NCBI GenBank assembly: GCA_024641245.1
Contig: JAHEDK010000002.1
Coordinates: 167,136 to 231,135 of the forward strand
Source of the DNA: Actinomycetes bacterium
Lineage (GTDB): Bacteria > Actinomycetota > Acidimicrobiia > Spongiisociales > JAHEDJ01
DNA length: 64,000 nt
Direction of reading: 5' to 3'
The notes beneath the pieces were generated by a model. The model had not been told where the DNA came from, did no database searches, and worked only from the letters and a program-made list of their open reading frames with translations. Made by a program: the position numbers and the translations under genes. How positions within the stretch are numbered: position 1 is the first letter of the stretch; each line of letters starts with the position of its first letter. Below are positions 42,372 to 64,000 of this stretch, piece by piece.

Positions 42372-42372
42372 G

Positions 42373-42486
42373 TCAGCCCTCCACCCGGCGGCGGACGCTG
42401 CGCAGGCGCACAGTCAAGAACACCGCATATCCGATCATGAAGCCGTACACCACCGTGTAGGCAAAAACGACCCATCCGTTAGACAT
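42373..42486 (-). CDS. ccmD: CcmD-like small membrane protein (37 aa), not in the ORF track
   Basis: The minus-strand ORF reads MSNGWVVFAYTVVYGFMIGYAVFLTVRLRSVRRRVEG. It sits between ccmC and ccmE, overlapping the ccmC stop by 8 nt and ending 1 nt before the ccmE ATG. One TM helix plus a basic tail is the CcmD layout. Confidence 0.55.
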   Translation of the reverse strand: MSNGWVVFAYTVVYGFMIGYAVFLTVRLRSVRRRVEG

Positions 42487-43204
42487 CTCGCACCTTCTCG
42501 AGGTTGGGAGCCGTGATGGCGGCACCGGCGGGCGTGGCATCAGCGGCGGCGGATTGTTCTTCGAGTTGTTCCTCGCCCCTGGCGATGGCCGTCTTGACGC
42601 TCATGAAGGCGAGATAGACCACGGTGAACGCTCCAACGTTGCTGAGCAACGCCAGCAGGATCTCTCCATCGATCGGAGAATCCGGTCGCACCACCGTGAT
42701 CCCCTGGTGCAACGTGCGAACGATGATCACCGAAACGTAGGACAGCGGCACGAGGAAGAAGGCCACGATGCCCAGCACCGCGGATCTCGTCGCCCGCATG
42801 GCCGGGTCGGGAATGCTGCGGCGCAAAGCCAGGTAACCGAGGTAGACGAAGAACATGAGGGCCGTCGTCATCATGCGGGCATCGCCCCAGTCCCAGAACG
42901 TCCCCCACACCGGGTAACCCCAGATCATGCCGGTCATGAGCGCCAGCGCGGTGAAGAACACGCCGACCGAGACGCTGGACTCGGCGATTCGATCGTAAAC
43001 GGGCTTGCGTCTCGCCAGCCACAGGATCGAGGCGGCGAACGTCACAAGAAACGAGAGGTAGGCAAGCCACGCCGAAGGTACGTGCACGTACATGATGCGG
43101 GTGTAGTCGCCCTGCAACTGATCGAGCGGCGCCTGGCCACCGAAGTAGAAGCCGACCAGCACCGCTGCCAGTGCGATCAACCCGAGTATTCGATGTCTAT
43201 TCAA
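42479..43204 (-). CDS. ccmC: haem exporter/haem handling protein CcmC
   Basis: WWD motif WGYPVWGTFWDWGDARM with flanking His residues, and six TM helices. Confidence 0.9.
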   Translation of the reverse strand: MNRHRILGLIALAAVLVGFYFGGQAPLDQLQGDYTRIMYVHVPSAWLAYLSFLVTFAASILWLARRKPVYDRIAESSVSVGVFFTALALMTGMIWGYPVWGTFWDWGDARMMTTALMFFVYLGYLALRRSIPDPAMRATRSAVLGIVAFFLVPLSYVSVIIVRTLHQGITVVRPDSPIDGEILLALLSNVGAFTVVYLAFMSVKTAIARGEEQLEEQSAAADATPAGAAITAPNLEKVRDV

Positions 43205-43881
43205 CGTGAGGCCTCCTCGAGGAATCGGGCGGTCAGCACACCTACCACTGCCAGCCCGAGTACCACGGCAAGTAGCAGAAGGATGGGAGTGAGGATACTT
43301 GACTTCTGAGCCAACGCTTCATACGTCTGTGATGCTCCGACGAGCAGCGGCAACGCCAGCGGTGCCACCAGCAGCGGTGCCAGCGTGTTACGAGAGCGCA
43401 GACCGGCCGTGATACCGGAGGCGAGCGTACCGATGAGCGCCAGGCCGACGGCCATCAGCAGAAGGACCAAAATCAGGATCGCCCACCCCTCTACCGGGTC
43501 CGGGTTGTAGAGGATGATCGTGGCGGGCGCAAGCACTCCTTCGAACACGAGCAACAGGAGGACGCTCGCCACAACCCTGCCCGCGAACTGCGCGGCCGGG
43601 TCCACGCCGAGCAACACCATCATCTCGCGATTGGCCGAACTCTCTGTGGCCGACTGGCGGAACGTGACCAGCATCCCGAACAGCAGGGTCACGACCCAGA
43701 ACATGCCCGGTCCGATCGAGGCGATGAGTGGACGGTCGGTCCCGATCGCCAGCGGGATGAGCAGCAGCGCAACCGCTCCAAACGGGATCGTGATGTTCAG
43801 GACCTCGCCGGTCCGTCCTTCGACCCGCAGATCCTTCAACCCGATCTCATATGCCTGGCCCCAGAACGACGGACCGCTCAT
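43201..43881 (-). CDS. ccmB: haem exporter membrane protein CcmB
   Basis: Six-TM CcmB-like protein lying between ccmA and ccmC, with 4-bp overlaps on both sides. Confidence 0.85.
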   Translation of the reverse strand: MSGPSFWGQAYEIGLKDLRVEGRTGEVLNITIPFGAVALLLIPLAIGTDRPLIASIGPGMFWVVTLLFGMLVTFRQSATESSANREMMVLLGVDPAAQFAGRVVASVLLLLVFEGVLAPATIILYNPDPVEGWAILILVLLLMAVGLALIGTLASGITAGLRSRNTLAPLLVAPLALPLLVGASQTYEALAQKSSILTPILLLLAVVLGLAVVGVLTARFLEEASR

Positions 43882-44534
43882 GATGAGCTCCCCGCGATCA
43901 CGATCCCACCCGTCAGCTCATAGGTCGATTGCACCAGCGGCAGCATGCGATCGAGTTCGTGGGACACGAAGACGGCGGCGCCACCACGGGAACGGACGTT
44001 CTCGACAACTGCGTCGACGAGTTGTCCGGCCTCTCGATCTAGTCCGGCGTGGGCCTCATCGAGCAGCAGTAGGTCGGGCCTGGTGAGAATCACCCTGGCG
44101 AACTCAACTCGCCGCTGCATACCATGCGACGACTGCTCCGCCCGCCGGTGCTTCGCCCCACCCAGCCCGACCACGTCGAGCATCTCATCTACCCGCTCGT
44201 CAGTGTGGCCCGACAACCGGGCGACGAAGGCGAGATTCTCACGCAGCGTCAACTGCGGGTAGAGCGCCGGTTGATGGCCGATCAGCGCGATCCGGCGCCG
44301 GATCGCAAACGCCGTCGCTTCGCCCATCTCGGTGCCGAACACCGCCACCGAGCCCTCCGTCGGTCGCAGCAACGTGGCCAGCACCCGGAGCAGCGTCGAC
44401 TTTCCCGAACCATTCGGCCCAACGATCCCGGCTGCCTCCCCGGACGGTACCGCCAGCTCCACGCCCTTCAATACCGGCACCCGGCCGTATCGAACGGCGA
44501 CGCCGTGCAGCTGCACTGTGGGAGGTGTGGACAT
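43878..44534 (-). CDS. ccmA: haem exporter ATP-binding protein CcmA
   Basis: Walker A GPNGSGKST, ABC signature SHGMQRR, and Walker B LLLLDEA. I prefer ATG 44534. Confidence 0.9.
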   Translation of the reverse strand: MSTPPTVQLHGVAVRYGRVPVLKGVELAVPSGEAAGIVGPNGSGKSTLLRVLATLLRPTEGSVAVFGTEMGEATAFAIRRRIALIGHQPALYPQLTLRENLAFVARLSGHTDERVDEMLDVVGLGGAKHRRAEQSSHGMQRRVEFARVILTRPDLLLLDEAHAGLDREAGQLVDAVVENVRSRGGAAVFVSHELDRMLPLVQSTYELTGGIVIAGSSS

Positions 44535-44804
44535 GACAGACGAGTGTACGCACGCAGCTTCGGGCGCCGAAACGCGACCCCGGATAAACACCACCCGTTC
44601 TCTCCCTTTCGCCACCTTTTCAGGGTTTTATGGCGGGTTTCAACCCAGGCAGGGCCCAAGTGCCCCAGGGCGCGAGGACTTTGCGCTGTTGGTGTGTTTC
44701 CGATATACCCGTATCCTCTGCAATGAGAAACGGGGGACCGACCCTGAATCGCCGCCGGAACGGCTCATTCACACGGTGATCCCCATGGAGGAAGGCACAG
44801 CAAA

Positions 44805-46844
44805 ATGAACGCGACCCTCGGGTATCTCTCGATCCTGGCCGCAGTGGTGGGAGCGCTCGGTATCACCGTGCGGGGTTTCATCGCGATGCGTGATCCGGAG
44901 CGGGCGAACAAAGGGTATCTGGGGTTGCCCGTCATACTGTTCGTGTCCGGAGCCGTCGGCGCAATGTTCTTCCTGGAACTCGGGCTTCTCACCGACGACT
45001 TCTCGATCAAGTACATCGCCAACAACTCCTCGACCACCACCCCGTTTCTCTTCAAGGTCGCCTCTGGATGGGCATCGCTGGAGGGATCGATCGTTTTGTG
45101 GGGTCTGGTCCTGGCCGGCTTCACATTCGCCGTATACGCACGGTTCTTCAGAAGCGAAAGCGGCGACCGGCTCGCAGCAGGGGCTCTGGCGATCATGGGG
45201 CTCATCTCTCTTTACTTCTTCGGGCTAATGGCCACAATCTCCGACCCATTCGCTCGCTGCGTGCAAACGTTCAGCGACGGTGTCGGTTGTGTGACCGGCG
45301 AGAACGCGATCCTCGCCAACGTGATCTCCTCCCCGATCGAAGGGCGCGGCGCCAACGCACTGCTCCAGAACCATTGGCTCATGGCCCTGCATCCACCAAC
45401 GCTCTACGTCGGCTATGTCGGGCTCAGCGTCCCCTTTGCGTTTGCCATCTCGGCGCTCCTCCTCAAAACCACCGGGGCGGCCTGGCTGACCCGGACCCGC
45501 AACTGGACGGTGTTCGCCTGGATGTTCCTCACTGCCGGCATTGTTCTCGGTGGGCTCTGGTCGTATGAGGTGCTCGGCTGGGGCGGCTACTGGGCATGGG
45601 ACCCGGTTGAGAACGCCTCCTTCATGCCGTGGCTGGTCGCGACTGCCTTCTTGCACTCGTCTGTCGTGCAGGCGAGGCGCGGGATGCTGCAGTCGTGGAA
45701 CTTCGTCCTCGTCATCACGACCTTCGCGCTCACGATTCTCGGCACCTTCTTGACCCGCTCCGGCGTAATCGTTTCGGTTCACAGCTTCTCGCAGTCCGCC
45801 ATCGGGCCTGCCCTGTTGATCTTCCTGGTGGTCGTGCTGCTGGGATCGCTCGGGCTCTTCGCGTCAAGGGCTCACACCATCGCCTCTTCTCCCCGGCTCG
45901 ATTCACTCAGCAGCCGGGAAGGGGTGTTCTTGTTCAACAACCTTCTGCTCACCGTGTTCGCGTTCATGGTGCTGACAGGGACGCTCTACCCGCTCTTCGT
46001 TGAGGCGTTCTCCGACTCGACGGTGGGCGTCGGTCGTCCGTTCTTCGATCGCATGGCGATCCCGTTGTCCTTCCTGTTGCTGCTGGCGATGGGCATCGGA
46101 CCGGTCTCGCCCTACCGGGCGGCGAGCGCCCGCGTCGTGTGGGAGCGGATTCGCTGGCCCGTCCGGGTTGCCCTCGGCGCCGCCGCGCTGGCCGTCGTGT
46201 TCGGCTATCGGAACTCGTTCCTGCTGCTCGGTGTTCTGGCCGCCGTGTTCGTCATGGGCGTGATCATCCGCAACCTCTACGACGCCGCCCGGACCAGGGC
46301 AGACAAACTCGGTATCGGACGGAGACAGGCCGCCGCCCGGATCATGCGCGGCGACCCGCACTATTGGGGTGGCCAGATCTCCCACCTGGGCGTTGCGATA
46401 CTGGCACTGGGCATCGCCTTCTCAGCCAACCTGTCGGAGACCGCCACGGTGACCATCGACGCCGGAGATACGGTCAACTTCGCCGGCTTCGAGGTGACCT
46501 ACGAACAGGAGTTCAGCCGCCAGGAACCGGGCCGGTTCGTCACCGGAGCAGACATCACGGTGACCCGGGACGGGTCGGTCGTCGGTACGTACCAGCCACG
46601 GCTGAATCAGTACGGCAACACGCGGGAATCGATCGCCACCCCAGAGGTCGACACCATGTTCTCAGGCGACCTGTACCTCTCGCTCCGCAGCATCGATCCT
46701 TCATCCGTGACCCTCGAGGTCTATTGGTTCCCGTTCATCTGGCTCATCTGGGTTGGAGGCTTCCTGGCGGCCGCCGCCGGGGTCTGGGGATTCGCGGTCA
46801 AGAAGCCCGAACGTTCGGTTGCACGGGACGACACGCGTGTCTGA
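44805..46844 (+). CDS. ccmF: cytochrome c haem lyase subunit CcmF
   Basis: Large polytopic protein with the WWD motif WGGYWAWDPVENAS. GGAGGAAGG RBS. Confidence 0.9.
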   Translation: MNATLGYLSILAAVVGALGITVRGFIAMRDPERANKGYLGLPVILFVSGAVGAMFFLELGLLTDDFSIKYIANNSSTTTPFLFKVASGWASLEGSIVLWGLVLAGFTFAVYARFFRSESGDRLAAGALAIMGLISLYFFGLMATISDPFARCVQTFSDGVGCVTGENAILANVISSPIEGRGANALLQNHWLMALHPPTLYVGYVGLSVPFAFAISALLLKTTGAAWLTRTRNWTVFAWMFLTAGIVLGGLWSYEVLGWGGYWAWDPVENASFMPWLVATAFLHSSVVQARRGMLQSWNFVLVITTFALTILGTFLTRSGVIVSVHSFSQSAIGPALLIFLVVVLLGSLGLFASRAHTIASSPRLDSLSSREGVFLFNNLLLTVFAFMVLTGTLYPLFVEAFSDSTVGVGRPFFDRMAIPLSFLLLLAMGIGPVSPYRAASARVVWERIRWPVRVALGAAALAVVFGYRNSFLLLGVLAAVFVMGVIIRNLYDAARTRADKLGIGRRQAAARIMRGDPHYWGGQISHLGVAILALGIAFSANLSETATVTIDAGDTVNFAGFEVTYEQEFSRQEPGRFVTGADITVTRDGSVVGTYQPRLNQYGNTRESIATPEVDTMFSGDLYLSLRSIDPSSVTLEVYWFPFIWLIWVGGFLAAAAGVWGFAVKKPERSVARDDTRV

Positions 46845-47250
46845 TTCGATTCGCAAGATCGCGGCGGCGGTGGTGACTATCGGCCTGGCGGTTGTCGTCG
46901 TAATCGGCCTCATCCAGGGCGACCGAACCGATGAAGATCGCGCCCGGTCCATCGGCTCCAGAGTGAAGTGTCCCGTTTGCCAGGGCGTAGCCATTGCCGA
47001 TTCTCCTTCGGAAACTGCCAGAGCGATGATGGACGTCGTCGAAGAGCGAATCGCAGACGGGTGGTCGGACAGACAGATCATCGACTACTTCGCGGAGCGC
47101 TACACCGACAGCATCGTCATCGACCCGCCCTTCAGCGGGAATACGCTGCTCGTCTGGCTGCTGCCGATCCTGGCAGTAGTCGCAGGCTTCTTCATGATCT
47201 TCTCCCGGCGCAAGACGCCGGTGCCAAAACCCGATGAGGTGAAACAGTGA
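46837..47250 (+). CDS. ccmH: cytochrome c biogenesis protein CcmH
   Basis: The CXXC motif is KCPVCQG, followed by the conserved SDS..A..M segment and a C-terminal TM helix. GTG 46837 overlaps the ccmF stop. Confidence 0.85.
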   Translation: MSDSIRKIAAAVVTIGLAVVVVIGLIQGDRTDEDRARSIGSRVKCPVCQGVAIADSPSETARAMMDVVEERIADGWSDRQIIDYFAERYTDSIVIDPPFSGNTLLVWLLPILAVVAGFFMIFSRRKTPVPKPDEVKQ

Positions 47251-48080
47251 GCAACTTCAACCAGGAGTCATACGATCGGGCGGTCGCCCGCAAGGAACTG
47301 GCCTTGACCGATCTCGAAGAGCTGGCCCAGCAGGTGGACGACGGTGAGATCGACGCGCCCACCGCGGCAGGACTCCGGAGCGGCTACGAGGCTGAACTCG
47401 GCGCGGCCGAAGCCGAACTGGCCAGACTCGGTCCACCGCCCACTCCCAAGAAGTCGCCCGGTCAAGCGTCGACCAAACGTGCGCCGAGCGAGAACGGACG
47501 GCCGGCCCGGAAGTCGAGCGACTTGAATACTCGTCTGCTGGTCGGCGCCGGCATTCTCATCGTCGCCCTCGTCGTGATTCTCATCTCGGTCCAGAATTCG
47601 GCGCAGCCGGATCCGGCCGCGATGGGCACCCAGGTGACGACGGCAAGCGGCGAGGACCCCTGCGCGGAGCTGGCCGACGCGTTGACCAGTCACTCCGACA
47701 ACGGCTTTCGTCTCGCACTGGCCGACTGCTACGCAGACGTCGGAAACGCCATGTCGGCGATCGAGCACTACCGGGCCGTCGCCGATGCCGAAGGTGCCGC
47801 CGACGGCGAGGTCGCACGGGCAAACGTGGGACTCGGCTTCCTCAACCTTCAAATCGGTGAGCTCGCCAAGGCCGCCGACTACATGCGCGTGGCGCTCGAG
47901 CGCGACGCCGCCAACGTCGAAGCTCAATACTTCCTGGGCATGATGCTCGTCTACGACCTCGGCGATCCGGCCGCAGGAGCCCCATATCTCGAGTCGGTAC
48001 TCGCAACTCCCGACCTGCCGGAGACGGTGATCCTCGAAATCCAGGCAGCGCTCGATGTCGCGGCGGGCGAGGGCTCATGA
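47247..48080 (+). CDS. CcmI/NrfG-like TPR protein (single TM, extracytoplasmic TPR domain)
   Basis: Coupled to ccmH and to the thioredoxin gene. The C-terminal TPR-like repeats are ADCYADVGNAMSAIEHYRAV and GFLNLQIGELAKAADYMRVAL. Confidence 0.55.
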   Translation: MSNFNQESYDRAVARKELALTDLEELAQQVDDGEIDAPTAAGLRSGYEAELGAAEAELARLGPPPTPKKSPGQASTKRAPSENGRPARKSSDLNTRLLVGAGILIVALVVILISVQNSAQPDPAAMGTQVTTASGEDPCAELADALTSHSDNGFRLALADCYADVGNAMSAIEHYRAVADAEGAADGEVARANVGLGFLNLQIGELAKAADYMRVALERDAANVEAQYFLGMMLVYDLGDPAAGAPYLESVLATPDLPETVILEIQAALDVAAGEGS

Positions 48081-48685
48081 CCAACACGGACCTCGCCGTC
48101 GAGCCGACCCCGGAAGCACCGCAACGCAACCTCAAACTGTGGATAACGACCGGCCTGGCGGCGGTGGCCTTCATCGCGCTCGCCCTCGTGTTCAACAGCC
48201 GGTTTGGCGTTGACCCCCGGGTCGTCGAATCCCCGCTCATCGGGCAACCCGCCCCGAACCTCGAACTCGAGGTTCTCGAGCAGGACGCCATCTCTGGCCC
48301 CATGGCAATGTCGGAATTTCGCGGCAGCGTGGTCGTGGTCAACTTCTTCGCCTCTTGGTGCATCCCCTCCTGTCGCGATGAGCACCCCCATCTCACCGCG
48401 GCCGCCGCCGACTACGCCGACCGCGGCGTCCGGTTCGTTGGAATAGCCACCAGCGACACACCCGAAGACACACGCGGGTTCCTCGACGCGCTCGGGTGGG
48501 GAACCAACTACACCTACCTCAACGATCCCGATGCCAGGGCAGGAGTCGAGTTCGGCACATTCGGAGTTCCCGAAACGTTCGTGATCGACCGGGAGGGGCT
48601 CGTCACGCACAAGTTCACGGGGCCGGTCACATACGATGAACTGGTCGTCGAGTTGGAGAAGGCGTTGACCGAGACGGGTTCATGA
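48077..48685 (+). CDS. ccmG: TlpA/CcmG(DsbE)-like thiol:disulfide oxidoreductase with atypical WCIPSC active site
   Basis: N-terminal anchor and thioredoxin fold. VVVNFFASWCIPSCRDEHPHL aligns with CcmG WC(A/P/V)PCR.EHP but carries one extra residue. The GVPETFVIDREG cis-Pro loop is present. Confidence 0.8.
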   Translation: MTNTDLAVEPTPEAPQRNLKLWITTGLAAVAFIALALVFNSRFGVDPRVVESPLIGQPAPNLELEVLEQDAISGPMAMSEFRGSVVVVNFFASWCIPSCRDEHPHLTAAAADYADRGVRFVGIATSDTPEDTRGFLDALGWGTNYTYLNDPDARAGVEFGTFGVPETFVIDREGLVTHKFTGPVTYDELVVELEKALTETGS

Positions 48686-48794: not shown

Positions 48795-49484
48795 ATGCAG
48801 AGAACAAACGAGCTGACACAAGGCGCGCGGCGGCTGGCCTGGTTGACACTTTTGACGCTCGCATGGTTGTTGTGGATGAGTCAGGCGGCCGCCCACGCCC
48901 AGGAACTCCCGGTACGGGATGATCCGTTCTGGAAGACGGACACCTGCCTCGGCTGCCATCAGCAGTCGGACCTGTCGGTGACGCTGCCATCCAACGAGAC
49001 GCTGCGCCTCGCCGTGTATAGAGGCGCGTACGAAGATTCGGTGCATGGTCGAACAGGAGTGGCCTGCCGCAATTGCCATCTCGACATCACGGGGTATCCG
49101 CACCCTGATCTCACCGCCGGAAGCCTGGCCGAGTTCTCAGAACAGCAGGCCAGTTCTTGCGAGATGTGTCACCGTGACCACTACGGCAAAGTGGCGGATG
49201 AGCTGCATGAGGAGTCCGGTGGGTTGCTGTGCTTCGAGTGTCATGATCCGCACACCACCGGCACCGGCTCCGTCTCGGCAGAAGTGCAAGCCTCCTGCAA
49301 CGCCTGCCACTCCGAGGGTATCGCCATTCCTGTCGAGGGGATTCATGCCGCGCCCGAGGTACCTGTCGCGGAGACCACAAGCGGCGTTACAATCCTGCTC
49401 ATCCTCGGCGGAATCTTCGTCGGTTTCGTCGTCCTCGTCTGGCTGGCGACGGTGGCTTGGCGTGTCGTGCGCGACCGAAGCTGA
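48795..49484 (+). CDS. pentahaem cytochrome c with signal peptide and C-terminal TM anchor
   Basis: Five CXXCH motifs: CLGCH, CRNCH, CEMCH, CFECH, CNACH. The C-terminal helix is ILLILGGIFVGFVVLVWLATVAW. The N-terminal half is paralogous to the 61800 gene. Confidence 0.85.
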   Translation: MQRTNELTQGARRLAWLTLLTLAWLLWMSQAAAHAQELPVRDDPFWKTDTCLGCHQQSDLSVTLPSNETLRLAVYRGAYEDSVHGRTGVACRNCHLDITGYPHPDLTAGSLAEFSEQQASSCEMCHRDHYGKVADELHEESGGLLCFECHDPHTTGTGSVSAEVQASCNACHSEGIAIPVEGIHAAPEVPVAETTSGVTILLILGGIFVGFVVLVWLATVAWRVVRDRS

Positions 49485-49625
49485 TCGGGCCCGTTTCCGC
49501 AGGTTAGCTTGTAGCAATTCCCAATCTTGTGCGCCCTTTCACATGGGTCGAATGACCCTACGCGATCTGCGCGCGGATCCGTCATCATGTCGGTACACGA
49601 GTCGAGTAGCTCCCGGGGAGGAAGC

Positions 49626-51698
49626 ATGAGTCGATTTCGACACACACGCTTGGTTGTGCTTGTCGCCCTGCTGATGGTCTTAGCGGCCTGCACGAGCAGC
49701 GCCGACGACACCACCACTACGGGAGCGGAAGGGTCAACGCCCACGACAGCTCCACCGGTCGTCGAGCCGGCGGAATCCGAGCTCGTGGTTCCGTTCCTAG
49801 CGGCCTGGGTCGGTTCTGGACACAACGACGCGACTGCTGAAGCCTTCGTGCACTGGAATGAGGACGACCCCCAGGTCATTCCGACCAGTTGCGCGAAGTG
49901 CCACAGCACCCCCGGTCACCTCGATTTCCTCGGAGCCGACGGCAGCCCGTTCGGCAGCGTTGAAGCCGACGCCCCCATCGGGACCACGATCCAATGCGAA
50001 GCGTGCCACAACGATGTCACGATCTCCCTGGACAGCGTCGTGATGCCATCGGGTCTCGAACTCACCGGCCTCGGCGACGAATCCCGTTGCATGAACTGCC
50101 ACCAGGGCAGGGAGTCCAAGATCAGCGTGGACGCATCGATTACCGAAGCGGGCGTCGAAGAGGACACCGTCTCCGAGGATCTGGGTTTCCGGAACATCCA
50201 CTACTTCGCGGCTGCCGCCACCAAATACGGTACCGAAGCCAAGGGTGGCTATGAGTACGAGGGCAAGACGTACGATGCGTTCTTCGTCCACGTCGAGGGA
50301 TACTCGACCTGTATTCAGTGCCATGATCCGCACACGCTGGAACTGAAGATCGCCGAATGCTCGACATGCCACACCGGTGTCGCCACGGTTGAGGATCTCC
50401 GAGATGTCCGTATGCCGGGATCACTCGTCGACTTCGACGGAGACGGGAATCTCGAAGAGGGCATCTACTACGAACTCGAGGGCGTGCGGGGACTCTTGCT
50501 CCAGGCCATTCAGGCGTATGCCTCCGAGGTGGCGGGAACCGGCATCACCTACGATGCCAACGCCTACCCGTACTTCTTCGATGAGGCCGGCAAGGGCTTT
50601 GGCGCGTGGACCCCGCGTCTGCTCAAAGCGGCGTACAACTATCAGGTGTCCCTCAAGGACCCGGGAGCATTCGCGCACGGTGGCAAGTACATCCTCGAGT
50701 TGATGTACGACTCGATCGAGAACCTCAACGAAGCCATCTCGTCGCCCATCGACATGACGGCGATGCACCGAATCGACCACGGGCACTTCGCCGGGTCCGA
50801 GGAAGCCTTCCGGCACTGGGACGAGGATGGCGCCGTGCCGGCTTCGTGCTCACGGTGCCACTCGGCTGGAGGCGTGCCGCTGTATCTGCAGGAAGGCGTG
50901 ACGATAACCCAGCCAACTTCCAACGGGTTCAACTGCTCGACGTGCCACAACAGCACGAGCGAGTGGACCCGGTATGAGGTCCTCGATGTGACCTTCCCGA
51001 GCGGTGCGACTATCGACAGCGGCGACCAGAACGCCAACCTTTGCATGACCTGTCACCAGGGCCGTGAATCCGGCGCAAGCGTCGACCGGCGGATCGGAGA
51101 CACCGGGGCGGATACCGTCAGCGACACACTTGGCTTCATCAACGTGCACTACCTGCCGGCGGGCGCCACGCTCTTCGGCAGCGAGGCAGCGGGTGGCTAC
51201 CAGTACGCCGGGCAGACCTATGCCGGAGCCAACGATCACCCCATCGCCACGTGCACGGGTTGCCACAGCGCCCACACACTACAGGTTGAGGTTGAGGCCT
51301 GCGGGGGTTGCCATCAGGGGACGAACTCTGAAGAAGACCTGCAGGACATCCGCATCACCGCCGGCGACTTCGATGGTGACGGCGACGAGGCCGAGGGCAT
51401 CGCCGGAGAGGTCGAGACCATGCGCGAAGCCCTGCTGGCGGCGATGCAGGCGTATGCGGACGCCACGGACGGCGTGAGCCCGATCGTGTACGACGCCCAC
51501 GCCTATCCGTACTTCTTCAACGACGCCGGTGAGAGCTATTCGACCTGGACGCCGCGTCTGCTGAGGGCCGCCTACAACTACCAGTACGCAACGAAGGACC
51601 CTGGTGCGTTCGCCCACAACCCGGCCTACGTGCTCGAGTTGTTGTATGACTCGCTGGCGGACATCGGCGCCGACGTGACGGGGCTGATCAGGCCGTAG
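49626..51698 (+). CDS. decahaem cytochrome c lipoprotein, internally duplicated (2 x 5 haems)
   Basis: Lipobox LLMVLAAC after ATG 49626 (RBS GGGGAGGAAG). Ten CXXCH motifs. The two halves align (e.g. YPYFFDEAGKGFGAWTPRLLKAAYNYQVSLKDPGAFAH versus YPYFFNDAGESYSTWTPRLLRAAYNYQYATKDPGAFAH). Confidence 0.85.
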   Translation: MSRFRHTRLVVLVALLMVLAACTSSADDTTTTGAEGSTPTTAPPVVEPAESELVVPFLAAWVGSGHNDATAEAFVHWNEDDPQVIPTSCAKCHSTPGHLDFLGADGSPFGSVEADAPIGTTIQCEACHNDVTISLDSVVMPSGLELTGLGDESRCMNCHQGRESKISVDASITEAGVEEDTVSEDLGFRNIHYFAAAATKYGTEAKGGYEYEGKTYDAFFVHVEGYSTCIQCHDPHTLELKIAECSTCHTGVATVEDLRDVRMPGSLVDFDGDGNLEEGIYYELEGVRGLLLQAIQAYASEVAGTGITYDANAYPYFFDEAGKGFGAWTPRLLKAAYNYQVSLKDPGAFAHGGKYILELMYDSIENLNEAISSPIDMTAMHRIDHGHFAGSEEAFRHWDEDGAVPASCSRCHSAGGVPLYLQEGVTITQPTSNGFNCSTCHNSTSEWTRYEVLDVTFPSGATIDSGDQNANLCMTCHQGRESGASVDRRIGDTGADTVSDTLGFINVHYLPAGATLFGSEAAGGYQYAGQTYAGANDHPIATCTGCHSAHTLQVEVEACGGCHQGTNSEEDLQDIRITAGDFDGDGDEAEGIAGEVETMREALLAAMQAYADATDGVSPIVYDAHAYPYFFNDAGESYSTWTPRLLRAAYNYQYATKDPGAFAHNPAYVLELLYDSLADIGADVTGLIRP

Positions 51699-51707
51699 CG
51701 TGACAGA

Positions 51708-51733
51708 GGGGGCCGGGCACACACCCGGCCCCC
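51708..51733 (+). terminator. stem-loop terminator after the decahaem gene
   Basis: GGGGGCCGGG-cacaca-CCCGGCCCCC followed by TCGTTGTT. Confidence 0.55.
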
Positions 51734-51746
51734 TCGTTGTTCCCCC

Positions 51747-51794
51747 TTCTTGCGTCACTTTGGGGCTCGATGTGCCCGGAAGTGACGCAAGAAG
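51747..51794. repeat. REP-like palindromic element, copy B (TTCTTGCGTCAC-N23-GTGACGCAAGAA)
   Basis: 12-bp perfect inverted arms. It abuts the stop codon of the DUF559 gene. Confidence 0.85.
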
Positions 51795-51796
51795 TC

Positions 51797-52708
51797 TCAA
51801 GCAGCCTGGTGGATCGCGGCCAGGACTTCCGCAACAACGGAATCCGGCCGGCCAATCAGGTCCCACCAGGTGTATCGAAGCGTTCTCCAGCCGAGTAGCT
51901 CTGTCTGGTTCTGGATCACGCGGTCTCTGCGAAACGTGGGGCGATCCATGTGAAACGCTTCGGAGTCGAGTTCGATCCGCAGGCGGTGCTCGATGAAGGC
52001 GAAGTCGGCCCGGCATACGAACGTCCCGTCAGGGTTTCTGATCTCCACCTGTGGCGTCGGTTGCGGCGTACGGAGCCCCCACGACCGGCGAAACAGATCT
52101 TCCAGTTCGCTCTCGGTGACGCCATCCCAGTGGAGCCGCTGCTCGACGAACGGCCGTATGACCCCGACTCCCCTGCGGCCGCGCCTGGCGACCCGGCCGA
52201 CCAGCGCGGCAACACCTTCGAGCGTAAAGCTCCGAGTTCTCAGACCTCTATCGAGAGCCGACTCGACCAGCCACGGCGCGCTGGCGCCCAGATCGACGAC
52301 CGTTCGGACCGGAGTGGTCACCGGGATACCCGAGACCTCCGCCGAGTCCTCGGGAGCGAGATCGGTCGACTCGTGAACGACGAACTCCTGATGCGCCCGA
52401 TTCCAGCGGGGCATCACTACCTCGATGCGCGGAGGCTTGCGATCAACCAGGCCGTGCAGGAATGCAGCGGTCTGGTGGGAGGCCAGCGCCAGATCGCCTG
52501 CGGTCGTGGTCGCGATGAGCACGGCCTGATGCCAGTCGCGCGGCACGGCGGGGAAAACGTACGTGCGGTAGGCCACCCGCTCGAGCACTCCGCGGGACGT
52601 CAAACCTTTCAACTGATCTGAGCTGAGCCCTGCCTCAATGACAGCAGCACGATCGACTACGCCGTGTCGCAAGGCGGCCCTCTGAGTGAGAATCTGCAAC
52701 GGTGTCAT
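51797..52708 (-). CDS. AbiEi_4-like N-terminal domain plus DUF559 (Vsr-like endonuclease fold) protein
   Basis: N-terminal HTH-like segment (RHGVVDRAAVIEAGLSSDQLKGLTSRGVLERV). The C-terminal segment ADFAFIEHRLRIELDSEAFH...LGWRTLRYTWWDL is typical of DUF559. The start is ATG 52708 or 52720. The longer track extension runs over the palindromic repeats. Confidence 0.75.
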   Translation of the reverse strand: MTPLQILTQRAALRHGVVDRAAVIEAGLSSDQLKGLTSRGVLERVAYRTYVFPAVPRDWHQAVLIATTTAGDLALASHQTAAFLHGLVDRKPPRIEVVMPRWNRAHQEFVVHESTDLAPEDSAEVSGIPVTTPVRTVVDLGASAPWLVESALDRGLRTRSFTLEGVAALVGRVARRGRRGVGVIRPFVEQRLHWDGVTESELEDLFRRSWGLRTPQPTPQVEIRNPDGTFVCRADFAFIEHRLRIELDSEAFHMDRPTFRRDRVIQNQTELLGWRTLRYTWWDLIGRPDSVVAEVLAAIHQAA

Positions 52709-52755
52709 GCCCAACACCATCAAGGTTGGGTGTGACAAATCCCGAACCCAGTGAA

Positions 52756-52800
52756 CTTGCGTCAGAAACGGGCGCCGGCCGCCCCAAACTGACGCAAGAA
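52756..52800. repeat. REP-like palindromic element, copy C1 (CTTGCGTCAG-N23-CTGACGCAAG)
   Basis: 10-bp perfect arms. The spacer contains GGGCG-ccggc-CGCCC. Confidence 0.8.
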
Positions 52801-61799: not shown

Positions 61800-62909
61800 A
61801 TGCGCACCAAGCTGCAAGGGTTCGCTCTGTGGGGGATGCTGTTCTTTGCCGTCGTCGGACTCACGGCCCTGTCGGCCGACCCGGCCTCAGCGCAGGATTC
61901 CGCCGACTCGGAAGTCAACAACTACTGCCTGGGATGCCACGAATCCGGGAACATCATTCTCACGTTCCCGTCGGGGGAGATGCTTCCCGCCGTGGTGCCG
62001 CGTACCGTTTTCGACGCCTCTATCCACGGTCAGGTCGGCCTCACCTGCATCGCCTGTCATACCGATATCGGGCAGTACCCACACGACCCCATGTCGGCCG
62101 TCACCCGGCGAGACCTGGCGATCGAGTTGTACACCACGTGCTTCAACTGCCACGAGAGCGAATACACCGACACGCTCGACAACATGCACACCGAAGCTCT
62201 CGCCGGCGGCAACCGGGAAGCCGCCGTCTGCACCGACTGCCACGGCGCTCACAACGTCACCCACCCCAGCGTCGACACAACGGCCATCCCGCGCACCTGC
62301 CGGAACTGCCACTCCGAGATCTACGACCTGTACGCCGGCAGCATCCACGGTGCCGCCCTACTCGAACACGACAATCAGGACGTTCCAAGCTGCACGAGTT
62401 GTCACGGCGTCCACAGTGTTGAAGGACCCTCGCACTCGCAATTCCACCTGTTCTCACCGAAAATCTGCGAGGACTGCCACGCCGATGAAGCTCTCATGGG
62501 CAAGTACGGGATCAGCACGGCGGTCTTCGACACCTACGTAGCCGATTTCCACGGCACGACGGTCATGCTCTTCGAGGAACTGGCGCCCGACCAGAAGACC
62601 AACTCGCCGGTCTGTATCGACTGCCACGGCGTGCACAACATCCTGGCCGCCAACGAGGTCGACTCGACCGTCTACAAGGAGAACCTGCTCCTCACCTGTC
62701 AGCGGTGCCACCCAGACGCCACCGCCAACTTCCCCGACTCGTGGATGAAGCACTACCAACCGACCTCCGACCAGGCGGTCCTTGTCTGGCTGGTCAATTG
62801 GTTCTACCGACTCGTCATCCCCGGCGTCGTGGGGGGCATGCTCGTCTGGGTGACGATCGACGGCATTCGCCACTTGCAGCATCGACGGAAGGCGGCCGAG
62901 AGTGTCTGA
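61800..62909 (+). CDS. nonahaem cytochrome c with signal peptide and C-terminal TM anchor
   Basis: Nine CXXCH motifs: CLGCH, CIACH, CFNCH, CTDCH, CRNCH, CTSCH, CEDCH, CIDCH, CQRCH. The C-terminal helix is LVIPGVVGGMLVWVTIDGI. Confidence 0.85.
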   Translation: MRTKLQGFALWGMLFFAVVGLTALSADPASAQDSADSEVNNYCLGCHESGNIILTFPSGEMLPAVVPRTVFDASIHGQVGLTCIACHTDIGQYPHDPMSAVTRRDLAIELYTTCFNCHESEYTDTLDNMHTEALAGGNREAAVCTDCHGAHNVTHPSVDTTAIPRTCRNCHSEIYDLYAGSIHGAALLEHDNQDVPSCTSCHGVHSVEGPSHSQFHLFSPKICEDCHADEALMGKYGISTAVFDTYVADFHGTTVMLFEELAPDQKTNSPVCIDCHGVHNILAANEVDSTVYKENLLLTCQRCHPDATANFPDSWMKHYQPTSDQAVLVWLVNWFYRLVIPGVVGGMLVWVTIDGIRHLQHRRKAAESV

Positions 62910-64000
62910 CGTCCTTGAGCGCGCAGCAGTCGACGTCGAACTGGACGATCGGATACTGCGTTTTGGAAAGGCGGATCGCATCGAGCATGCGGTCCAGGTA
63001 ATCAGCTTCGCCGGCCTCGGCCTCACTGGGCTGATCCAGAAGTTCTTCGAGTCGGCGATTTCTCAGTGGTGGATTGAGTTCCTTGGTGGGTTGCCACAGG
63101 TGCGCGTCATTCATCGCTGGCTGGCGACCATCCTCATGCTCGCCGTCATCTGGCACTTCGGTAAAGCCGGATATCGCACGTACGTCGAACGGCGACCGCG
63201 AGCCATGGTCCCGAGCAAGCGCGACTGGATTGCCATCAAGGAATCGATCGCGGTGCTGGCGGGACGGCGTCACGAACCTGTGAAACAAGGTCGATTCACG
63301 TTCGCGGAGAAGGTCGAGTACTGGTCGTTCGTCTGGGGCACCGTCTTGATGATCGCCACCGGCTATATGCTGTGGAACCCGATTTCCACCGCCAAGTTCC
63401 TCCCCGGTGATTTCATCCCGGCCGCCAAAGCGGCACACGGTGGAGAAGCGATCCTGGCTGTGCTGGCCATCCTCGTCTGGCACATCTACCACGTGCACAT
63501 CAAGCATTTCAACAAGAGCATCTTCACCGGCTACATCAGCCGGGCAGAGATGATCGAAGAACATGGCCTCGAACTCGAGGCGATGGAGGCGGGCAAGACC
63601 GGTCCGCAGGCGACACAAGCCGAGATTGTGGAGCGGCGGCGCAAGTTCCTTCCCGCCTTCGGTGTTGTGGCGGTCCTCATGATGGCCGGCATCTACTGGT
63701 TCGTGAGCTTCGAGGATACGTCGATCGCCACCATCGAGCCCATCGAAAACGTGGTGGCATACAAGCCACTGCCTCCTGAACAGCAGAGCGGCCCGGCGCT
63801 TTCTGGTGACAATCCGCTCCCGACCATCGTCATCCCCGACACCACCCTCCCCACCGAGACGACGGTGCCGCAGGGTGAAGTCACATGGGCCACGGTTGGG
63901 CCCGTTCTGGCCGATAGCTGCGGTACGTGCCATTCGGCCTCGAACTCCATGGGCGGGCTCGACCTTTCGTCGTACGAGGGGGCGCTGGGTTCCGAGGGAG
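62902..64000 (+). CDS. FdnI/HydC-type dihaem cytochrome b fused to a C-terminal PSCyt1-like cytochrome c domain; 3' end outside the window; absent from the ORF track
   Basis: My own translation of frame 1 from GTG 62902, which overlaps the nonahaem stop by 8 nt: VSDVLERAAVDVELDDRILRFGKADRIEHAVQVISFAGLGLTGLIQKF...IHRWLATILMLAVIWHF...FTFAEKVEYWSFVWGTVLMIATGYMLW...AAHGGEAILAVLAILVWHIYHVHI...VGPVLADSCGTCHSASNSMGGLDLSSYEGAL. There is no stop up to base 64000. Confidence 0.8.
   Translation, partial: MSDVLERAAVDVELDDRILRFGKADRIEHAVQVISFAGLGLTGLIQKFFESAISQWWIEFLGGLPQVRVIHRWLATILMLAVIWHFGKAGYRTYVERRPRAMVPSKRDWIAIKESIAVLAGRRHEPVKQGRFTFAEKVEYWSFVWGTVLMIATGYMLWNPISTAKFLPGDFIPAAKAAHGGEAILAVLAILVWHIYHVHIKHFNKSIFTGYISRAEMIEEHGLELEAMEAGKTGPQATQAEIVERRRKFLPAFGVVAVLMMAGIYWFVSFEDTSIATIEPIENVVAYKPLPPEQQSGPALSGDNPLPTIVIPDTTLPTETTVPQGEVTWATVGPVLADSCGTCHSASNSMGGLDLSSYEGALGSEG

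What the first reader, a model, noticed from the sequence alone, without database searches (positions are those of the whole stretch)
49626..51698. Internally duplicated decahaem lipoprotein, a candidate cell-surface terminal cytochrome
Seen directly: the lipobox is LLMVLAAC followed by a Thr/Pro-rich linker (SSADDTTTTGAEGSTPTTAPPVVEP). Two homologous ~320-aa halves follow, each with five CXXCH motifs in the same order: CxKCHS/CSRCHS, CEACHN/CSTCHN, CMNCHQGRES/CMTCHQGRES, CIQCHDPH/CTGCHSAH, CSTCHTG/CGGCHQG. Each half also has a long conserved non-haem segment, YPYFF..AG....(W)TPRLL(K/R)AAYNYQ...KDPGAFAH.

The 2 x 5 haem organisation is formally reminiscent of the decahaem outer-surface cytochromes of Shewanella (MtrC/OmcA), which is established knowledge. 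I see no sequence evidence of homology to them.

The inference is that the lipid anchor and long linker could let the haem domains reach through or onto the cell wall.
Basis: partly seen in the sequence, partly recalled or inferred. Interest (0 to 1): 0.55.

Follow-up and report, generated by a model that had tools for sequence, protein, structure and literature searches.

The report
Tandem NrfA-like decahaem lipoprotein cytochrome
This gene encodes a membrane-tethered protein carrying ten haem groups, built from two copies of a nitrite-reductase-like module; it belongs to a very large, unstudied family that probably carries respiratory electrons outward through the cell envelope in Chloroflexota and Acidimicrobiia.

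Summary
ORF 49626-51698 (+) encodes a 690-aa protein with a lipoprotein signal peptide (Cys22), a disordered Thr/Pro linker and two ~320-aa halves (44% identical, E=2e-89). Each half has five CXXCH motifs. All 21 cysteines are accounted for: 20 bind haem and 1 is the lipidation site.

The protein belongs to a large family annotated only as hypothetical or generic cytochrome: 2,382 50%-identity clusters and 576 confirmed stretches in species-representative genomes, mostly Chloroflexota and Acidimicrobiia. Family genes sit beside quinol-dehydrogenase modules (FdnI-type cytochrome b plus multihaem, QrcCD-like, NapC-like) and Ccm genes. Three-module, 15-haem relatives are the last gene of porin / 14-haem / 15-haem operons.

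A 'terminal' role, the direction of electron flow and a possible catalytic haem remain untested. I rate it a new variant of a known kind, of moderate-to-good interest.

The parts
49617..49622 (+). Shine-Dalgarno-like GGAGGA just upstream of the ATG at 49626
   Evidence: Read directly from the sequence. It supports the 690-aa start over the upstream TTG at 49527.
49626..49691 (+). Sec-type lipoprotein signal peptide ending in the lipobox L-A-A-C (Cys22)
   Evidence: Sequence. Lipobox-like N-termini were found in 94 of 120 close relatives by a strict pattern, with variants in most of the others. Cys22 is the only Cys outside a CXXCH motif.
49692..49778 (+). Thr/Pro/Ala-rich disordered linker (aa 23-51)
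   Evidence: pLDDT is below 50 for aa 19-51. Relatives have linkers of median ~55 aa, rich in E/V/P/T, or Ig-like spacer domains.
49779..50750 (+). Module 1 (aa 52-375). Five CXXCH at aa 89, 124, 155, 229 and 245 (nt 49890-50372), then three helices at aa 280-301, 330-344 and 354-368.
   Evidence: Modelled alone, this module hits only NrfA structures, weakly (Foldseek TMq 0.40-0.47, all E > 0.2).
50751..51695 (+). Module 2 (aa 376-690). Five CXXCH at aa 408, 437, 473, 543 and 559 (nt 50847-51314), then three helices at aa 592-613, 643-657 and 666-680.
   Evidence: It is 44% identical to module 1.
50430..50471 (+). DFDGDGNLEEG loop (DxDxDG, probable Ca2+ site) just before helix 1 of module 1
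   Evidence: D218, E227, G228 and E232 (module numbering) are invariant in both modules across the family; D220, G221 and G223 are invariant or >=90% conserved depending on the alignment. Ca2+ binding is an inference from the motif.
51366..51407 (+). DFDGDGDEAEG loop (DxDxDG), the equivalent site in module 2
51702..51738 (+). GC-rich hairpin followed by UCGUUGUU, immediately after the stop codon; a likely transcription terminator
   Evidence: Minimum free energy -31.5 kcal/mol, z = -4.56 against shuffles, 0 of 200 shuffles as stable. The consensus terminator scan did not list it.
48795..49484 (+). Upstream pentahaem cytochrome (229 aa) with a signal peptide and a C-terminal membrane helix; a likely membrane-side partner
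   Evidence: Five CXXCH motifs, with only generic multihaem Pfam/NCBIfam hits. A separate orthologue was found only in the close relative L015.
42479..44615 (-). ccmC, ccmB, ccmA (System I cytochrome c maturation)
   Evidence: Pfam Cytochrom_C_asm, CcmB and ABC_tran.
44805..48685 (+). ccmF, ccmH, a TPR (CcmI-like) gene and a CcmG/TlpA-like thioredoxin, co-directional with and directly upstream of the cytochrome genes
   Evidence: Pfam CcmF_C, CcmH, TPR_16 and AhpC-TSA/Redoxin. The same order is seen in Acidimicrobiia-type loci L015, L016, L021 and L037.
61800..64000 (+). Nine-haem membrane-anchored cytochrome (61800-62909) plus an FdnI/HydC-type cytochrome b (62902 onward, running off the window): a CbcL-like quinol dehydrogenase pair. 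In relatives this pair lies directly after the decahaem gene.
   Evidence: In L015, L016, L021 and L037 the pair follows the decahaem gene within ~200 bp.

Best explanation
The gene encodes an extracytoplasmic decahaem c-type cytochrome.

Shown:
- It has a lipoprotein signal peptide and a disordered linker.
- It has two tandem modules, each with five CXXCH haem sites followed by a three-helix bundle.
- The predicted fold of each module is that of the NrfA-type 'C-terminal module' shared by NrfA, ONR, OcwA and OmhA.
- It lies downstream of, and co-directional with, a complete System I (Ccm) haem-attachment gene set.
- Its relatives are encoded next to quinol-oxidising membrane modules.

Inferred mechanism:
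1. The apoprotein is exported by Sec.
2. Cys22 is lipidated, which holds it on the outer face of the cytoplasmic membrane.
3. The Ccm proteins attach ten haems.
4. Electrons taken from menaquinol by the neighbouring cytochrome b / multihaem or NapC-like modules, possibly via the upstream membrane-anchored pentahaem, enter the membrane-proximal module.
5. They hop along a ten-haem chain held away from the membrane by the linker, into or through the cell wall.
6. There they are passed to further cytochromes or to extracellular or soluble acceptors.

Functionally it would work like OcwA/OmhA of Gram-positive metal reducers. It is a separate, much larger family built by duplicating the whole NrfA-like module.
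For: Anatomy:
- Ten CXXCH motifs, halves 44% identical at E=2e-89, and every Cys accounted for.
- Lipobox and disordered linker.

Fold:
- AF2 model with pLDDT 81 and pTM 0.69.
- Foldseek top hits are OcwA, then NrfA. The single-module model hits only NrfA, at TMq 0.40-0.47.
- OcwA is described as a haem domain plus a C-terminal three-helix bundle and is a surface terminal reductase (PMC6703420). The superfamily is defined in PMC9250108.

Context in the window:
- ccmCBA and ccmFHIG, then the pentahaem, then this gene, then a terminator hairpin.
- A nine-haem protein plus FdnI-type cytochrome b lies downstream.

Context elsewhere, from my blastp labelling of ORFs in 85 loci:
- About 35 loci have 8-haem / 14-haem / cytochrome b / family gene.
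- Others have multihaem / QrcC-like FeS / QrcD-like NrfD / family gene, or a NapC/NrfH-like gene next door.

Extracellular position in diderms:
- Three independent loci carry a ~470-aa signal-peptide protein ending in ...SIEF/SIGF (weak OMP_b-brl hit), then a 13-14-haem lipoprotein, then a 15-haem three-module lipoprotein of this family.
- A fourth, truncated locus repeats the first two genes.

Tether logic: across the 150 listed representatives, in the many proteins with long N-terminal extensions the best-matching module lies well downstream of the N-terminus and in several reaches the last residue. Some relatives carry Ig-like spacer domains between anchor and modules.
Against: - There is no experimental localisation, redox or activity data for any family member. 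None was found in six literature searches.
- The fold assignment rests on haem-free AF2 models. Only one of five models was confident, and the other four had pLDDT 65-69. Foldseek E-values are all above 1e-3.
- Sequence profiles do not connect the module to NrfA or OcwA.
- Each module has six conserved non-motif His for five haems, so a five-coordinate catalytic haem with distal His residues, as in OcwA, is possible.
- Core conservation is unusually high for a surface cytochrome: 57-66% identity between phyla whose CcmF proteins are only 35% identical.
- Matching genomes include MAGs assigned to Litorilinea aerophila and Candidatus Caldilinea saccharophila. From memory, cultured relatives of these are aerobic or facultative heterotrophs not known to reduce metals.
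- The window holds at least six other multihaem genes that could be the true terminal components.
Confidence: 0.55

Rival explanations
1. It is chiefly an enzyme. Each NrfA-like module would keep a five-coordinate haem, and the protein would reduce (or oxidise) a soluble N- or S-oxyanion or similar small molecule on the outer face of the membrane, for example nitrite, hydroxylamine, NO, sulfite or tetrathionate. The other haems would feed the active sites.
For: - The closest folds are enzymes or enzyme-like: NrfA, octahaem nitrite reductase, HAO and MccA. OcwA itself has two open haems and reduces nitrite and hydroxylamine (PMC6703420; PMC9250108).
- Each module has one more conserved His than bis-His ligation needs.
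- CH-Q-G-R after haem 3, N-x-H-Y and several Tyr are invariant in both modules of the two-module subfamily.
- Cross-phylum conservation is very high.
- Rhodanese-domain genes lie near the cluster in two loci.
Against: - There is no CXXCK and no HH motif.
- The Pfam cytochrome c552 score is 10.7 bits against a cut-off of 24.1, and no NCBIfam NrfA, ONR or Otr model comes near its cut-off.
- The Arg of CHQGR is replaced in single-module relatives (CHYGT, CHQGL).
- The porin / 14-haem / 15-haem operons place the family outside the outer membrane, an odd site for a small-anion reductase.
- No accessory subunits typical of the Nrf, Mcc or Otr systems recur.
Confidence: 0.2
2. It works in the opposite direction. 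It would be an electron-uptake cytochrome that oxidises extracellular Fe(II), Mn(II), reduced humics or a cathode, and passes electrons inward to the bc-type complexes and terminal oxidases or reductases.
For: - The window also encodes two Rieske / cytochrome b complexes and a cytochrome b subunit fused to about seven monohaem c domains (34102-41825).
- Matching genomes include MAGs of lineages whose cultured members are, from memory, aerobic or facultative.
- Multihaem conduits of the Mtr/Mto type are known to run either way (established knowledge).
Against: - No Cyc2, MtoAB or other known Fe-oxidation marker was seen in the loci examined.
- The recurrent partners (FdnI-type cytochrome b, QrcCD-like, NapC-like) are best known as quinol or quinone couplers in anaerobic respiration.
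- Sequence alone says nothing about haem potentials.
Confidence: 0.12
3. It is only a membrane-side relay or electron store in the space between membrane and wall. In this role it would resemble NrfB, cytochrome c554 or the Thermincola periplasmic decahaems, serving other enzymes or outer cytochromes and never reaching the surface.
For: - The lipid anchor fixes it to the cytoplasmic membrane, and the linker here is only about 30 residues.
- Several further multihaem genes, an NHL beta-propeller and a SurA-like foldase lie downstream and could form the outer part of the pathway.
- Some relatives have a cleavable, non-lipoprotein signal peptide.
Against: - The three-module relatives sit in the extracellular position of porin-cytochrome operons.
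- In most loci the family gene is the last and largest cytochrome of its operon.
- The best structural matches, OcwA and OmhA, are surface proteins.
Confidence: 0.13

Closest known systems
OcwA (TherJR_2595) of Thermincola potens, PDB 6I5B
   Same: - It is a haem-rich core followed by a short C-terminal three-helix bundle with NrfA-type haem packing (PMC6703420).
- It is an extracytoplasmic multihaem of a monoderm bacterium proposed to pass electrons beyond the wall.
   Different: - OcwA has nine haems, arranged as one c554-like module plus one NrfA-like module. This protein has ten, arranged as two complete NrfA-like modules, each with its own helix bundle.
- There is no detectable sequence homology (19% identity in the structural alignment; profile searches miss it).
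- OcwA's His-His motifs over its two open haems are absent here.
- This protein is a lipoprotein with a linker.
- The family is found in Chloroflexota and Acidimicrobiia rather than Firmicutes.
OmhA of Carboxydothermus ferrireducens, PDB 6QVM
   Different: OmhA has eleven haems and an OcwA-like architecture with an N-terminal two-haem extension. It has no internal duplication of the NrfA-like module. It is known from a single genus (bioRxiv 10.1101/2025.05.29.656830), whereas this family has thousands of members.
NrfA, pentahaem cytochrome c nitrite reductase (e.g. PDB 6V0A, 1QDB, 3UBR)
   Same: - One module is about the same as one NrfA: five haems in the same order, followed by three helices.
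- The order of conserved non-motif His along the module parallels the order of NrfA's distal ligands. This comparison is from memory and is a lead only.
   Different: - There is no CXXCK active-site motif.
- Pfam PF02335 scores 10.7 bits against a cut-off of 24.1, and the NCBIfam NrfA models are far below cut-off.
- The helices are much shorter.
- The module is duplicated in tandem and lipid-anchored.
- No nrfH or nrfBCD partners of the canonical kind are present.
- A DxDxDG loop is present, whereas NrfA's Ca2+ site is built differently (the NrfA detail is from memory).
MtrC/OmcA decahaem outer-surface cytochromes of Shewanella
   Same: Both are lipoproteins with ten haems in a 2 x 5 arrangement and a similar haem density (~69 residues per haem). 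Three-module relatives of this family occupy the same operon position as MtrC, after a porin and a densely packed periplasmic multihaem.
Geobacter porin-cytochrome (Pcc/Ext) conduits and the CbcL/ImcH quinol dehydrogenases
   Same: The gene-neighbourhood logic is the same: FdnI-type cytochrome b plus multihaem (CbcL-like), NapC/NrfH-like multihaem (ImcH/CymA-like) and QrcCD-like modules lie next to a large lipoprotein cytochrome. In diderm relatives there is a ~470-aa porin plus a periplasmic multihaem.
   Different: None of the partners reaches an NCBIfam equivalog cut-off. The host here is a monoderm-type Acidimicrobiia with no porin. The outer cytochrome belongs to a different fold family from OmcB/OmcC (the Geobacter comparison is from general knowledge and was not tested here).

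Membership tests
MtrC/OmcA family decahaem cytochromes | Sequence match to the family models (Pfam PF22113 MtrC-MtrF domains II/IV; NCBIfam TIGR03507) | tested here: not met
   PF22113 scores 22.3 bits against a cut-off of 30. TIGR03507 is not among the hits at E<=1.
MtrC/OmcA family decahaem cytochromes | Four-domain fold: two pentahaem domains alternating with two beta-barrel domains | tested here: not met
   [not shown]
MtrC/OmcA family decahaem cytochromes | Lipoprotein with ten CXXCH motifs | tested here: met
   This feature is shared by analogy only.
NrfA (cytochrome c nitrite reductase) | Sequence match to Pfam PF02335 or the NCBIfam NrfA equivalogs | tested here: not met
   PF02335 scores 10.7 bits against a cut-off of 24.1. 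There is no NrfA (catalytic subunit) model among the NCBIfam hits for this protein; the only Nrf models hit are the NrfB pentahaem-subunit models NF008659 (23.6 bits vs 184) and TIGR03146 (17.0 bits vs 166.6).
NrfA (cytochrome c nitrite reductase) | Active-site haem bound by CXXCK (Lys proximal ligand) in most members | tested here: not met
   No CXXCK motif; all ten motifs are CXXCH.
NrfA (cytochrome c nitrite reductase) | Five haems followed by a C-terminal helical bundle (fold) | tested here: met
   [not shown]
NrfA (cytochrome c nitrite reductase) | Five-coordinate catalytic haem with a Tyr/His/Arg pocket | not testable with these tools
The only data are the residue counts: six conserved non-motif His per five haems, plus the conserved CHQGR and N-x-H-Y.
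OcwA/OmhA surface cytochromes (clade 3 of the NrfA/HAO superfamily, PMC9250108) | An N-terminal c554-like tetrahaem module joined to a C-terminal NrfA-like module (9 or 11 haems) | tested here: not met
   This protein has two NrfA-like modules of five haems each, and both halves align to each other end to end.
OcwA/OmhA surface cytochromes (clade 3 of the NrfA/HAO superfamily, PMC9250108) | Conserved non-bonding His-His pairs over two five-coordinate haems | tested here: not met
   There is no HH dipeptide anywhere in the protein. Whether other His residues play this role could not be tested.
OcwA/OmhA surface cytochromes (clade 3 of the NrfA/HAO superfamily, PMC9250108) | Overall fold similarity | tested here: met
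   [not shown]
OcwA/OmhA surface cytochromes (clade 3 of the NrfA/HAO superfamily, PMC9250108) | Location on the cell surface or S-layer and reduction of insoluble Fe(III) | not testable with these tools
   This needs experiments.
Bacterial lipoproteins (Lgt/Lsp substrates) | Signal peptide with a positive n-region, a hydrophobic h-region and a lipobox [LVI][ASTVI][GAS]C | tested here: met
   MSRFRHTR-LVVLVALLMV-LAAC with Cys22. The feature is conserved in most relatives. It was checked by pattern only, not by a trained predictor.
Porin-cytochrome (Pcc/Mtr-type) trans-outer-membrane conduits | Adjacent genes for an outer-membrane beta-barrel, a periplasmic multihaem and an extracellular lipoprotein multihaem | tested here: not met
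   This is not met for this window: there is no porin gene, and the host is Acidimicrobiia-type. It is met for the three-module relatives in L004, L089 and L090/L091. There the barrel assignment rests on a signal peptide, a C-terminal Phe and a weak PF13505 hit.

The most novel reading that the evidence does not exclude
This family, rather than any Mtr-, OmcS- or OcwA-type protein, could be the main and so far unrecognised extracellular electron-exchange cytochrome of Chloroflexota (Anaerolineae, Caldilineae, Ardenticatenia) and Acidimicrobiia. It would be a distinct structural solution made by tandem duplication (x1, x2, x3) of a complete NrfA-like pentahaem/helix-bundle module. In monoderms it would be tethered by lipid and a spacer. 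In diderms it would be recruited as the outer component of a new porin-cytochrome complex. Each module may also retain an open haem, which would make it a multi-site extracellular reductase.
Probability: 0.3. Interest if true: 0.75.

Novelty: new variant of a known kind. Interest (0 to 1): 0.55.

Why it matters
How monoderm, often filamentous Chloroflexota and Actinomycetota exchange electrons with minerals, electrodes or humic matter is largely unknown. Only two Firmicutes proteins, OcwA and OmhA, have been characterised.

This window gives a clean example of a family with several useful properties:
- It is very large: 2,382 50%-identity clusters, and 576 confirmed stretches in species-representative genomes from sludge, sediment, groundwater and hot-spring MAGs.
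- Its predicted fold is related to those two proteins.
- It is wired to quinol dehydrogenases.
- Its diderm relatives occupy the extracellular slot of porin-cytochrome operons.

If the function is confirmed, the family would be a practical genomic marker for extracellular electron transfer in two abundant, poorly understood phyla. It would also be a new case of multihaem evolution by whole-module duplication within the NrfA/HAO superfamily.

Tried and rejected
- **Sequence searches against characterised families gave only generic multihaem hits.** These were Pfam and NCBIfam, phmmer against PDB and a module profile against PDB. The best profile hit (6r2q chain A, E 4.5e-5) covers only the spacing of haem motifs 1-3, so I did not treat it as homology.
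- **MtrC/OmcA homology was rejected** (see the membership rows).
- **The Ardenticatena maritima surface cytochrome was checked as a possible known member.** ARMA_0580 has seven haems and is a different protein (PMC5808234).
- **Seven literature searches found no description of this family**. The library is open-access only, so a description elsewhere cannot be excluded.
- **An exact-sequence look-up of the window protein's own contig failed**. The taxon was instead inferred from a >90%-identical cluster member annotated Acidimicrobiia.
- **A metagenome scan with the porin found only one extra, truncated locus**. The porin-cytochrome association therefore rests on n = 3 complete loci.
- **No clean junction was found for the ~10-kb extra segment downstream.** There is no tRNA in the window, and the DNA alignment of the junctions with L015 was uninformative.
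- **PDB sequence searches with the neighbouring 11-haem and 6-haem proteins found nothing**, so I cannot say whether they are nanowire-type cytochromes.
- **Haem ligation (bis-His versus open) could not be resolved**, because model coordinates are not exposed and the models lack haem.
Full report
**1. Observation**

The ORF list gives 49527..51698 on the + strand.

There are ten CXXCH motifs, at residues 89, 124, 155, 229, 245 and 408, 437, 473, 543, 559. There are no CXXCK or longer-spaced variants. From the protein's own composition, 0.025 CXXCH motifs would be expected.

The protein has 21 cysteines. Twenty are in haem motifs and the remaining one is Cys22 of the lipobox L-A-A-C. BLASTP of residues 51-375 against 376-690 gives 44% identity over 320 columns, E=2e-89.

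**2. Anatomy**

- The N-terminus MSRFRHTRLVVLVALLMVLAAC has the charge, hydrophobic stretch and lipobox of a Sec-type lipoprotein signal. This is a pattern check only.
- Residues 19-51 are predicted disordered.
- An AlphaFold2 model built on 35 family members has mean pLDDT 81 and pTM 0.69. Only one of the five models was that good; the other four had pLDDT 65-69.
- Each half is a loop- and short-helix-rich region carrying the five haem motifs, followed by three longer helices: 280-301, 330-344, 354-368 in the first half and 592-613, 643-657, 666-680 in the second. There is almost no beta structure.

- the five CXXCH motifs;
- six further conserved histidines (H15, H25, H141, H171, H185, H300 in module numbering; H171 at >=90%, the rest invariant);
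- Q-G-R directly after the third haem motif;
- P-S-G after the second haem motif;
- N-x-H-Y;
- a D-x-D-G-D-G...E-G loop (a DxDxDG calcium-type motif) just before the first long helix;
- the YPYFF / WTPRLL.AAYNYQ / KDPG.F.H block inside the helical part.

Five haems need five distal ligands, so one conserved histidine per module is surplus. That is compatible with all-bis-His haems plus one structural His. It is equally compatible with one open haem and two distal His residues, as in OcwA. I could not resolve this because the models have no haem and coordinates are not exposed.

The mature apoprotein is 71 kDa (about 78 kDa with haem) and very acidic, with pI 4.3. A strong hairpin at 51702-51738 (-31.5 kcal/mol, z -4.6) followed by a U-containing tail sits right after the stop codon. 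The gene probably ends its transcription unit.

**3.

| Search | Result |
|---|---|
| Foldseek vs PDB, whole model | OcwA (6I5B) first (E 6e-3, prob 1.0), then NrfA structures |
| Foldseek vs PDB, module 1 alone (pLDDT 78, pTM 0.79) | Only NrfA among meaningful hits; TMq 0.40-0.47; all E > 0.2 |

OcwA is described by its authors as a globular haem domain plus a C-terminal three-helix bundle reminiscent of NrfA. [quoted passage not shown] Soares et al. define a homologous group comprising c554, NrfA, ONR, HAO, HDH, IhOCC, OTR, MccA, OcwA and OmhA. The group is built from an 'N-terminal' and a 'C-terminal' (NrfA-like, helix-bearing) module (PMC9250108).

The protein here is best described as two complete copies of that C-terminal module in tandem. 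I found no description of this architecture in that paper, in its 2025 follow-up or elsewhere.

At the sequence level nothing links it to these families:
- Pfam and NCBIfam give only generic multihaem domains.
- phmmer against PDB gives NrfA at E=0.05.
- The module profile does not find NrfA or OcwA at all.

**4. The family**

A search of the 5.8-billion-protein set returned more than 5,500 proteins at E<=1e-3. The 120 listed relatives carry no functional annotation: sources call them 'hypothetical protein', generic cytochrome c family names, or in a few cases evidently spurious names.

- The top 120 are 49-81% identical to the window protein.
- 108 of them have ten haems. Eleven have 14-15 haems in about 1,030-1,200 residues, most with a third copy of the module motifs.
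- The module profile finds 2,382 clusters at 50% identity (505 at E<=1e-30).
- Members have one, two or three modules, or long N-terminal extensions. In several of the extended proteins the best-matching module reaches the last residue.
- Examples include ~360-aa single-module proteins and a 1,284-aa protein with three Ig-like repeats ahead of three modules.
- Most close relatives are lipoproteins. Some have a cleavable signal peptide instead.
- The spacer between the lipidated Cys and the first module has a median of about 55 residues and is E/V/P/T-rich.

The best 79 loci are from Chloroflexota (Anaerolineae, Caldilineae, Promineifilaceae, Ardenticatenia) and Acidimicrobiia/Actinomycetota MAGs. 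A >90%-identical cluster member of the window protein is annotated 'cytochrome c3 family protein [Acidimicrobiia bacterium]'. The window is therefore most likely from an Acidimicrobiia MAG, a monoderm lineage by general knowledge.

**5. Context in the window**

Upstream and co-directional lie ccmF, ccmH, a TPR (CcmI-like) gene and a CcmG/TlpA-like thioredoxin. ccmCBA is divergent from these. Next comes a 229-aa pentahaem with a signal peptide and a C-terminal membrane helix (48795-49484), and then the decahaem gene.

Further upstream are two Rieske / cytochrome b sets and a cytochrome b subunit fused to about seven monohaem c domains.

Downstream are, in order:
- an AbiEi/DUF559-like gene on the opposite strand;
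- five more multihaem genes (6, 11, 10 and 10 CXXCH in the first four; the fifth, at 58306-59157, was not counted);
- an Rrf2 regulator;
- a SurA-like protein, a TPR protein and an NHL beta-propeller;
- a nine-haem membrane-anchored cytochrome, followed by an FdnI/HydC-type cytochrome b that runs off the window.

**6. Context elsewhere**

I labelled the ORFs of 85 related loci by blastp against reference neighbours.

- The commonest arrangement (about 35 loci, Chloroflexota) is 8-haem / 14-haem / FdnI-type cytochrome b / family gene, all on one strand.
- Another frequent arrangement is multihaem / QrcC-like FeS protein / QrcD-like NrfD membrane protein / family gene.
- NapC/NrfH-like multihaems and NarL-type two-component pairs are frequent neighbours.
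- In Acidimicrobiia-type loci the order is ccm genes / family gene / nine-haem / cytochrome b / NapC-like.

All of these partners are quinol- or quinone-coupled membrane modules of the kind that feed extracellular electron-transfer chains, such as CbcL, ImcH and CymA (general knowledge). None reaches an equivalog cut-off.

The three-module (15-haem) lipoproteins with poly-Gly linkers are informative about location. In three independent loci (L004 from a Candidatus Abyssubacteria MAG, L089, and L090/L091) they are the last gene of a triplet:

1. a ~470-aa protein with a signal peptide, a C-terminal ...SIEF/SIGF and a weak OMP beta-barrel hit;
2. a ~325-aa lipoprotein with 13-14 haems;
3. the family member.

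A fourth, truncated contig repeats the first two genes. This is the gene order of porin-cytochrome conduits, in which the last, lipoprotein cytochrome lies outside the outer membrane.

**7. Mechanism**

Shown:
- export and lipidation signals;
- ten haem sites in two NrfA-like modules;
- a position downstream of, and co-directional with, the Ccm genes;
- a persistent association of the family with quinol-dehydrogenase modules.

Inferred: the protein is tethered to the outer face of the cytoplasmic membrane. It receives electrons from the adjacent quinol-oxidising modules, possibly through the upstream pentahaem. It conducts them along a ten-haem chain into or through the wall, to further cytochromes or to external acceptors.

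I put 0.55 on this conduit reading. Within it, whether the protein is the last component is open.

Rivals:
- A catalytic, OcwA/NrfA-like reductase of small soluble substrates (0.2). This is favoured by the fold, the surplus conserved His and the strong conservation. It is disfavoured by the missing CXXCK and HH motifs, by variation of the CHQGR Arg in single-module relatives and by the porin-linked relatives.
- Inward electron uptake (0.12).
- A purely membrane-side relay (0.13).

These readings are not mutually exclusive. OcwA itself does both jobs in vitro.

**8. An unexpected pattern**

Locus L015 is a close relative of the window. Its Ccm proteins are 73-89% identical (CcmI-like 58%), and its nine-haem protein is 90% identical, in the same gene order. 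Its decahaem, however, is only 64% identical.

The divergence is uneven along the gene: 66-88% across module 1, but 46-60% across module 2. In L015 the nine-haem gene follows within 200 bp, whereas the window has about 10 kb of extra genes at exactly that point.

Conversely, Chloroflexota decahaems are 55-64% identical to the window's, although their CcmF proteins are only 34-37% identical. The family therefore combines a rigid core with fast-changing or exchanged parts. It has probably moved between phyla, and the window copy looks mosaic. I did not resolve whether this reflects recombination or diversifying selection.

**9. Comparison, novelty and scores**

The protein works most like OcwA and OmhA. 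Structurally it belongs with the NrfA/HAO superfamily. It is only analogous to MtrC/OmcA.

It fails the defining tests for membership of NrfA (family models, CXXCK), OcwA/OmhA (c554-like module, HH motifs) and MtrC/OmcA (models, beta-barrel domains). I therefore rate it a new variant of a known kind: an uncharacterised, very widespread family with a new module arrangement.

Interest is 0.55. The result is not a surprise in kind. It does make an open question directly testable, namely how monoderm Chloroflexota and Actinomycetota move electrons across their envelope. It also points to a previously unremarked porin-cytochrome type.

Noticed in passing
window 51700-61800, compared with L015 9980-10180: The window carries about 10 kb that is absent from the closely related locus L015, where the nine-haem gene follows the decahaem gene within 200 bp. 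The extra segment holds an AbiEi/DUF559-like gene (51797-52912, -), five multihaem genes (52940-54094, 54250-55752, 56424-57296, 57293-58309, 58306-59157), an Rrf2 regulator (55916-56362), a SurA-like protein, a TPR protein and an NHL beta-propeller (60489-61655). No tRNA or clear junction repeat was found.
   Followed up: partly
window 49626-51698 vs L015 7857-9980: Divergence is mosaic. The flanking Ccm and nine-haem proteins are 73-90% identical to L015 (CcmI-like 58%), but the decahaem is only 64% identical. Module 1 is 66-88% identical and module 2 only 46-60%. This suggests recombination or replacement of the 3' half next to the insertion, or diversifying selection.
   Followed up: partly
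L004 7358-13084; L089 3891-9522; L090 1803-7660; L092 1554-3938: A conserved operon encodes a ~470-aa putative outer-membrane barrel (signal peptide, C-terminal Phe, 58-66% identical between loci), then a 13-14-haem lipoprotein, then a 15-haem three-module relative. It appears to be an undescribed type of porin-cytochrome gene cluster.
   Followed up: partly
window 34102-41825: The window has two Rieske proteins (34102-34584, 40775-41368), a PetB-like cytochrome b (39536-40342) and an 866-aa protein that fuses a cytochrome b C-terminal (PetD-like) domain to about seven monohaem cytochrome c domains (35069-37669). A GltD-like FAD/FeS oxidoreductase (37812-39608) and a monohaem cytochrome c (41307-41825) lie alongside. 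This is an unusual bc-type complex.
   Followed up: no
window 41949-48685: A full System I (Ccm) cytochrome c maturation set sits in what appears to be an Acidimicrobiia genome. From memory, Actinomycetota usually rely on System II (ResBC/CcsBA). The set may have travelled with the multihaem genes. The 140-aa ORF at 41949-42371 (-) looks like CcmE but was not scanned.
   Followed up: no
L014, L039, L063: Some Chloroflexota loci carry two or three family genes in tandem on the same strand, which indicates recent paralogous expansion.
   Followed up: no
protein P0077; proteins P0129 and P0110: The anchor-to-module spacers vary. P0077 has a Cys-rich CPECPECP... repeat linker. P0129 has three Ig-like repeats (~300 aa) and P0110 has Big_2-type domains before the modules. 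Chloroflexota members commonly use (V/E)-rich 'VEVTREV' repeats, and the three-module forms use poly-Gly.
   Followed up: no
L001 1675-3504; L086 16414-17547: Rhodanese-domain proteins are encoded near the family gene cluster in two Chloroflexota loci. This is a faint hint of a link to sulfur compounds.
   Followed up: no
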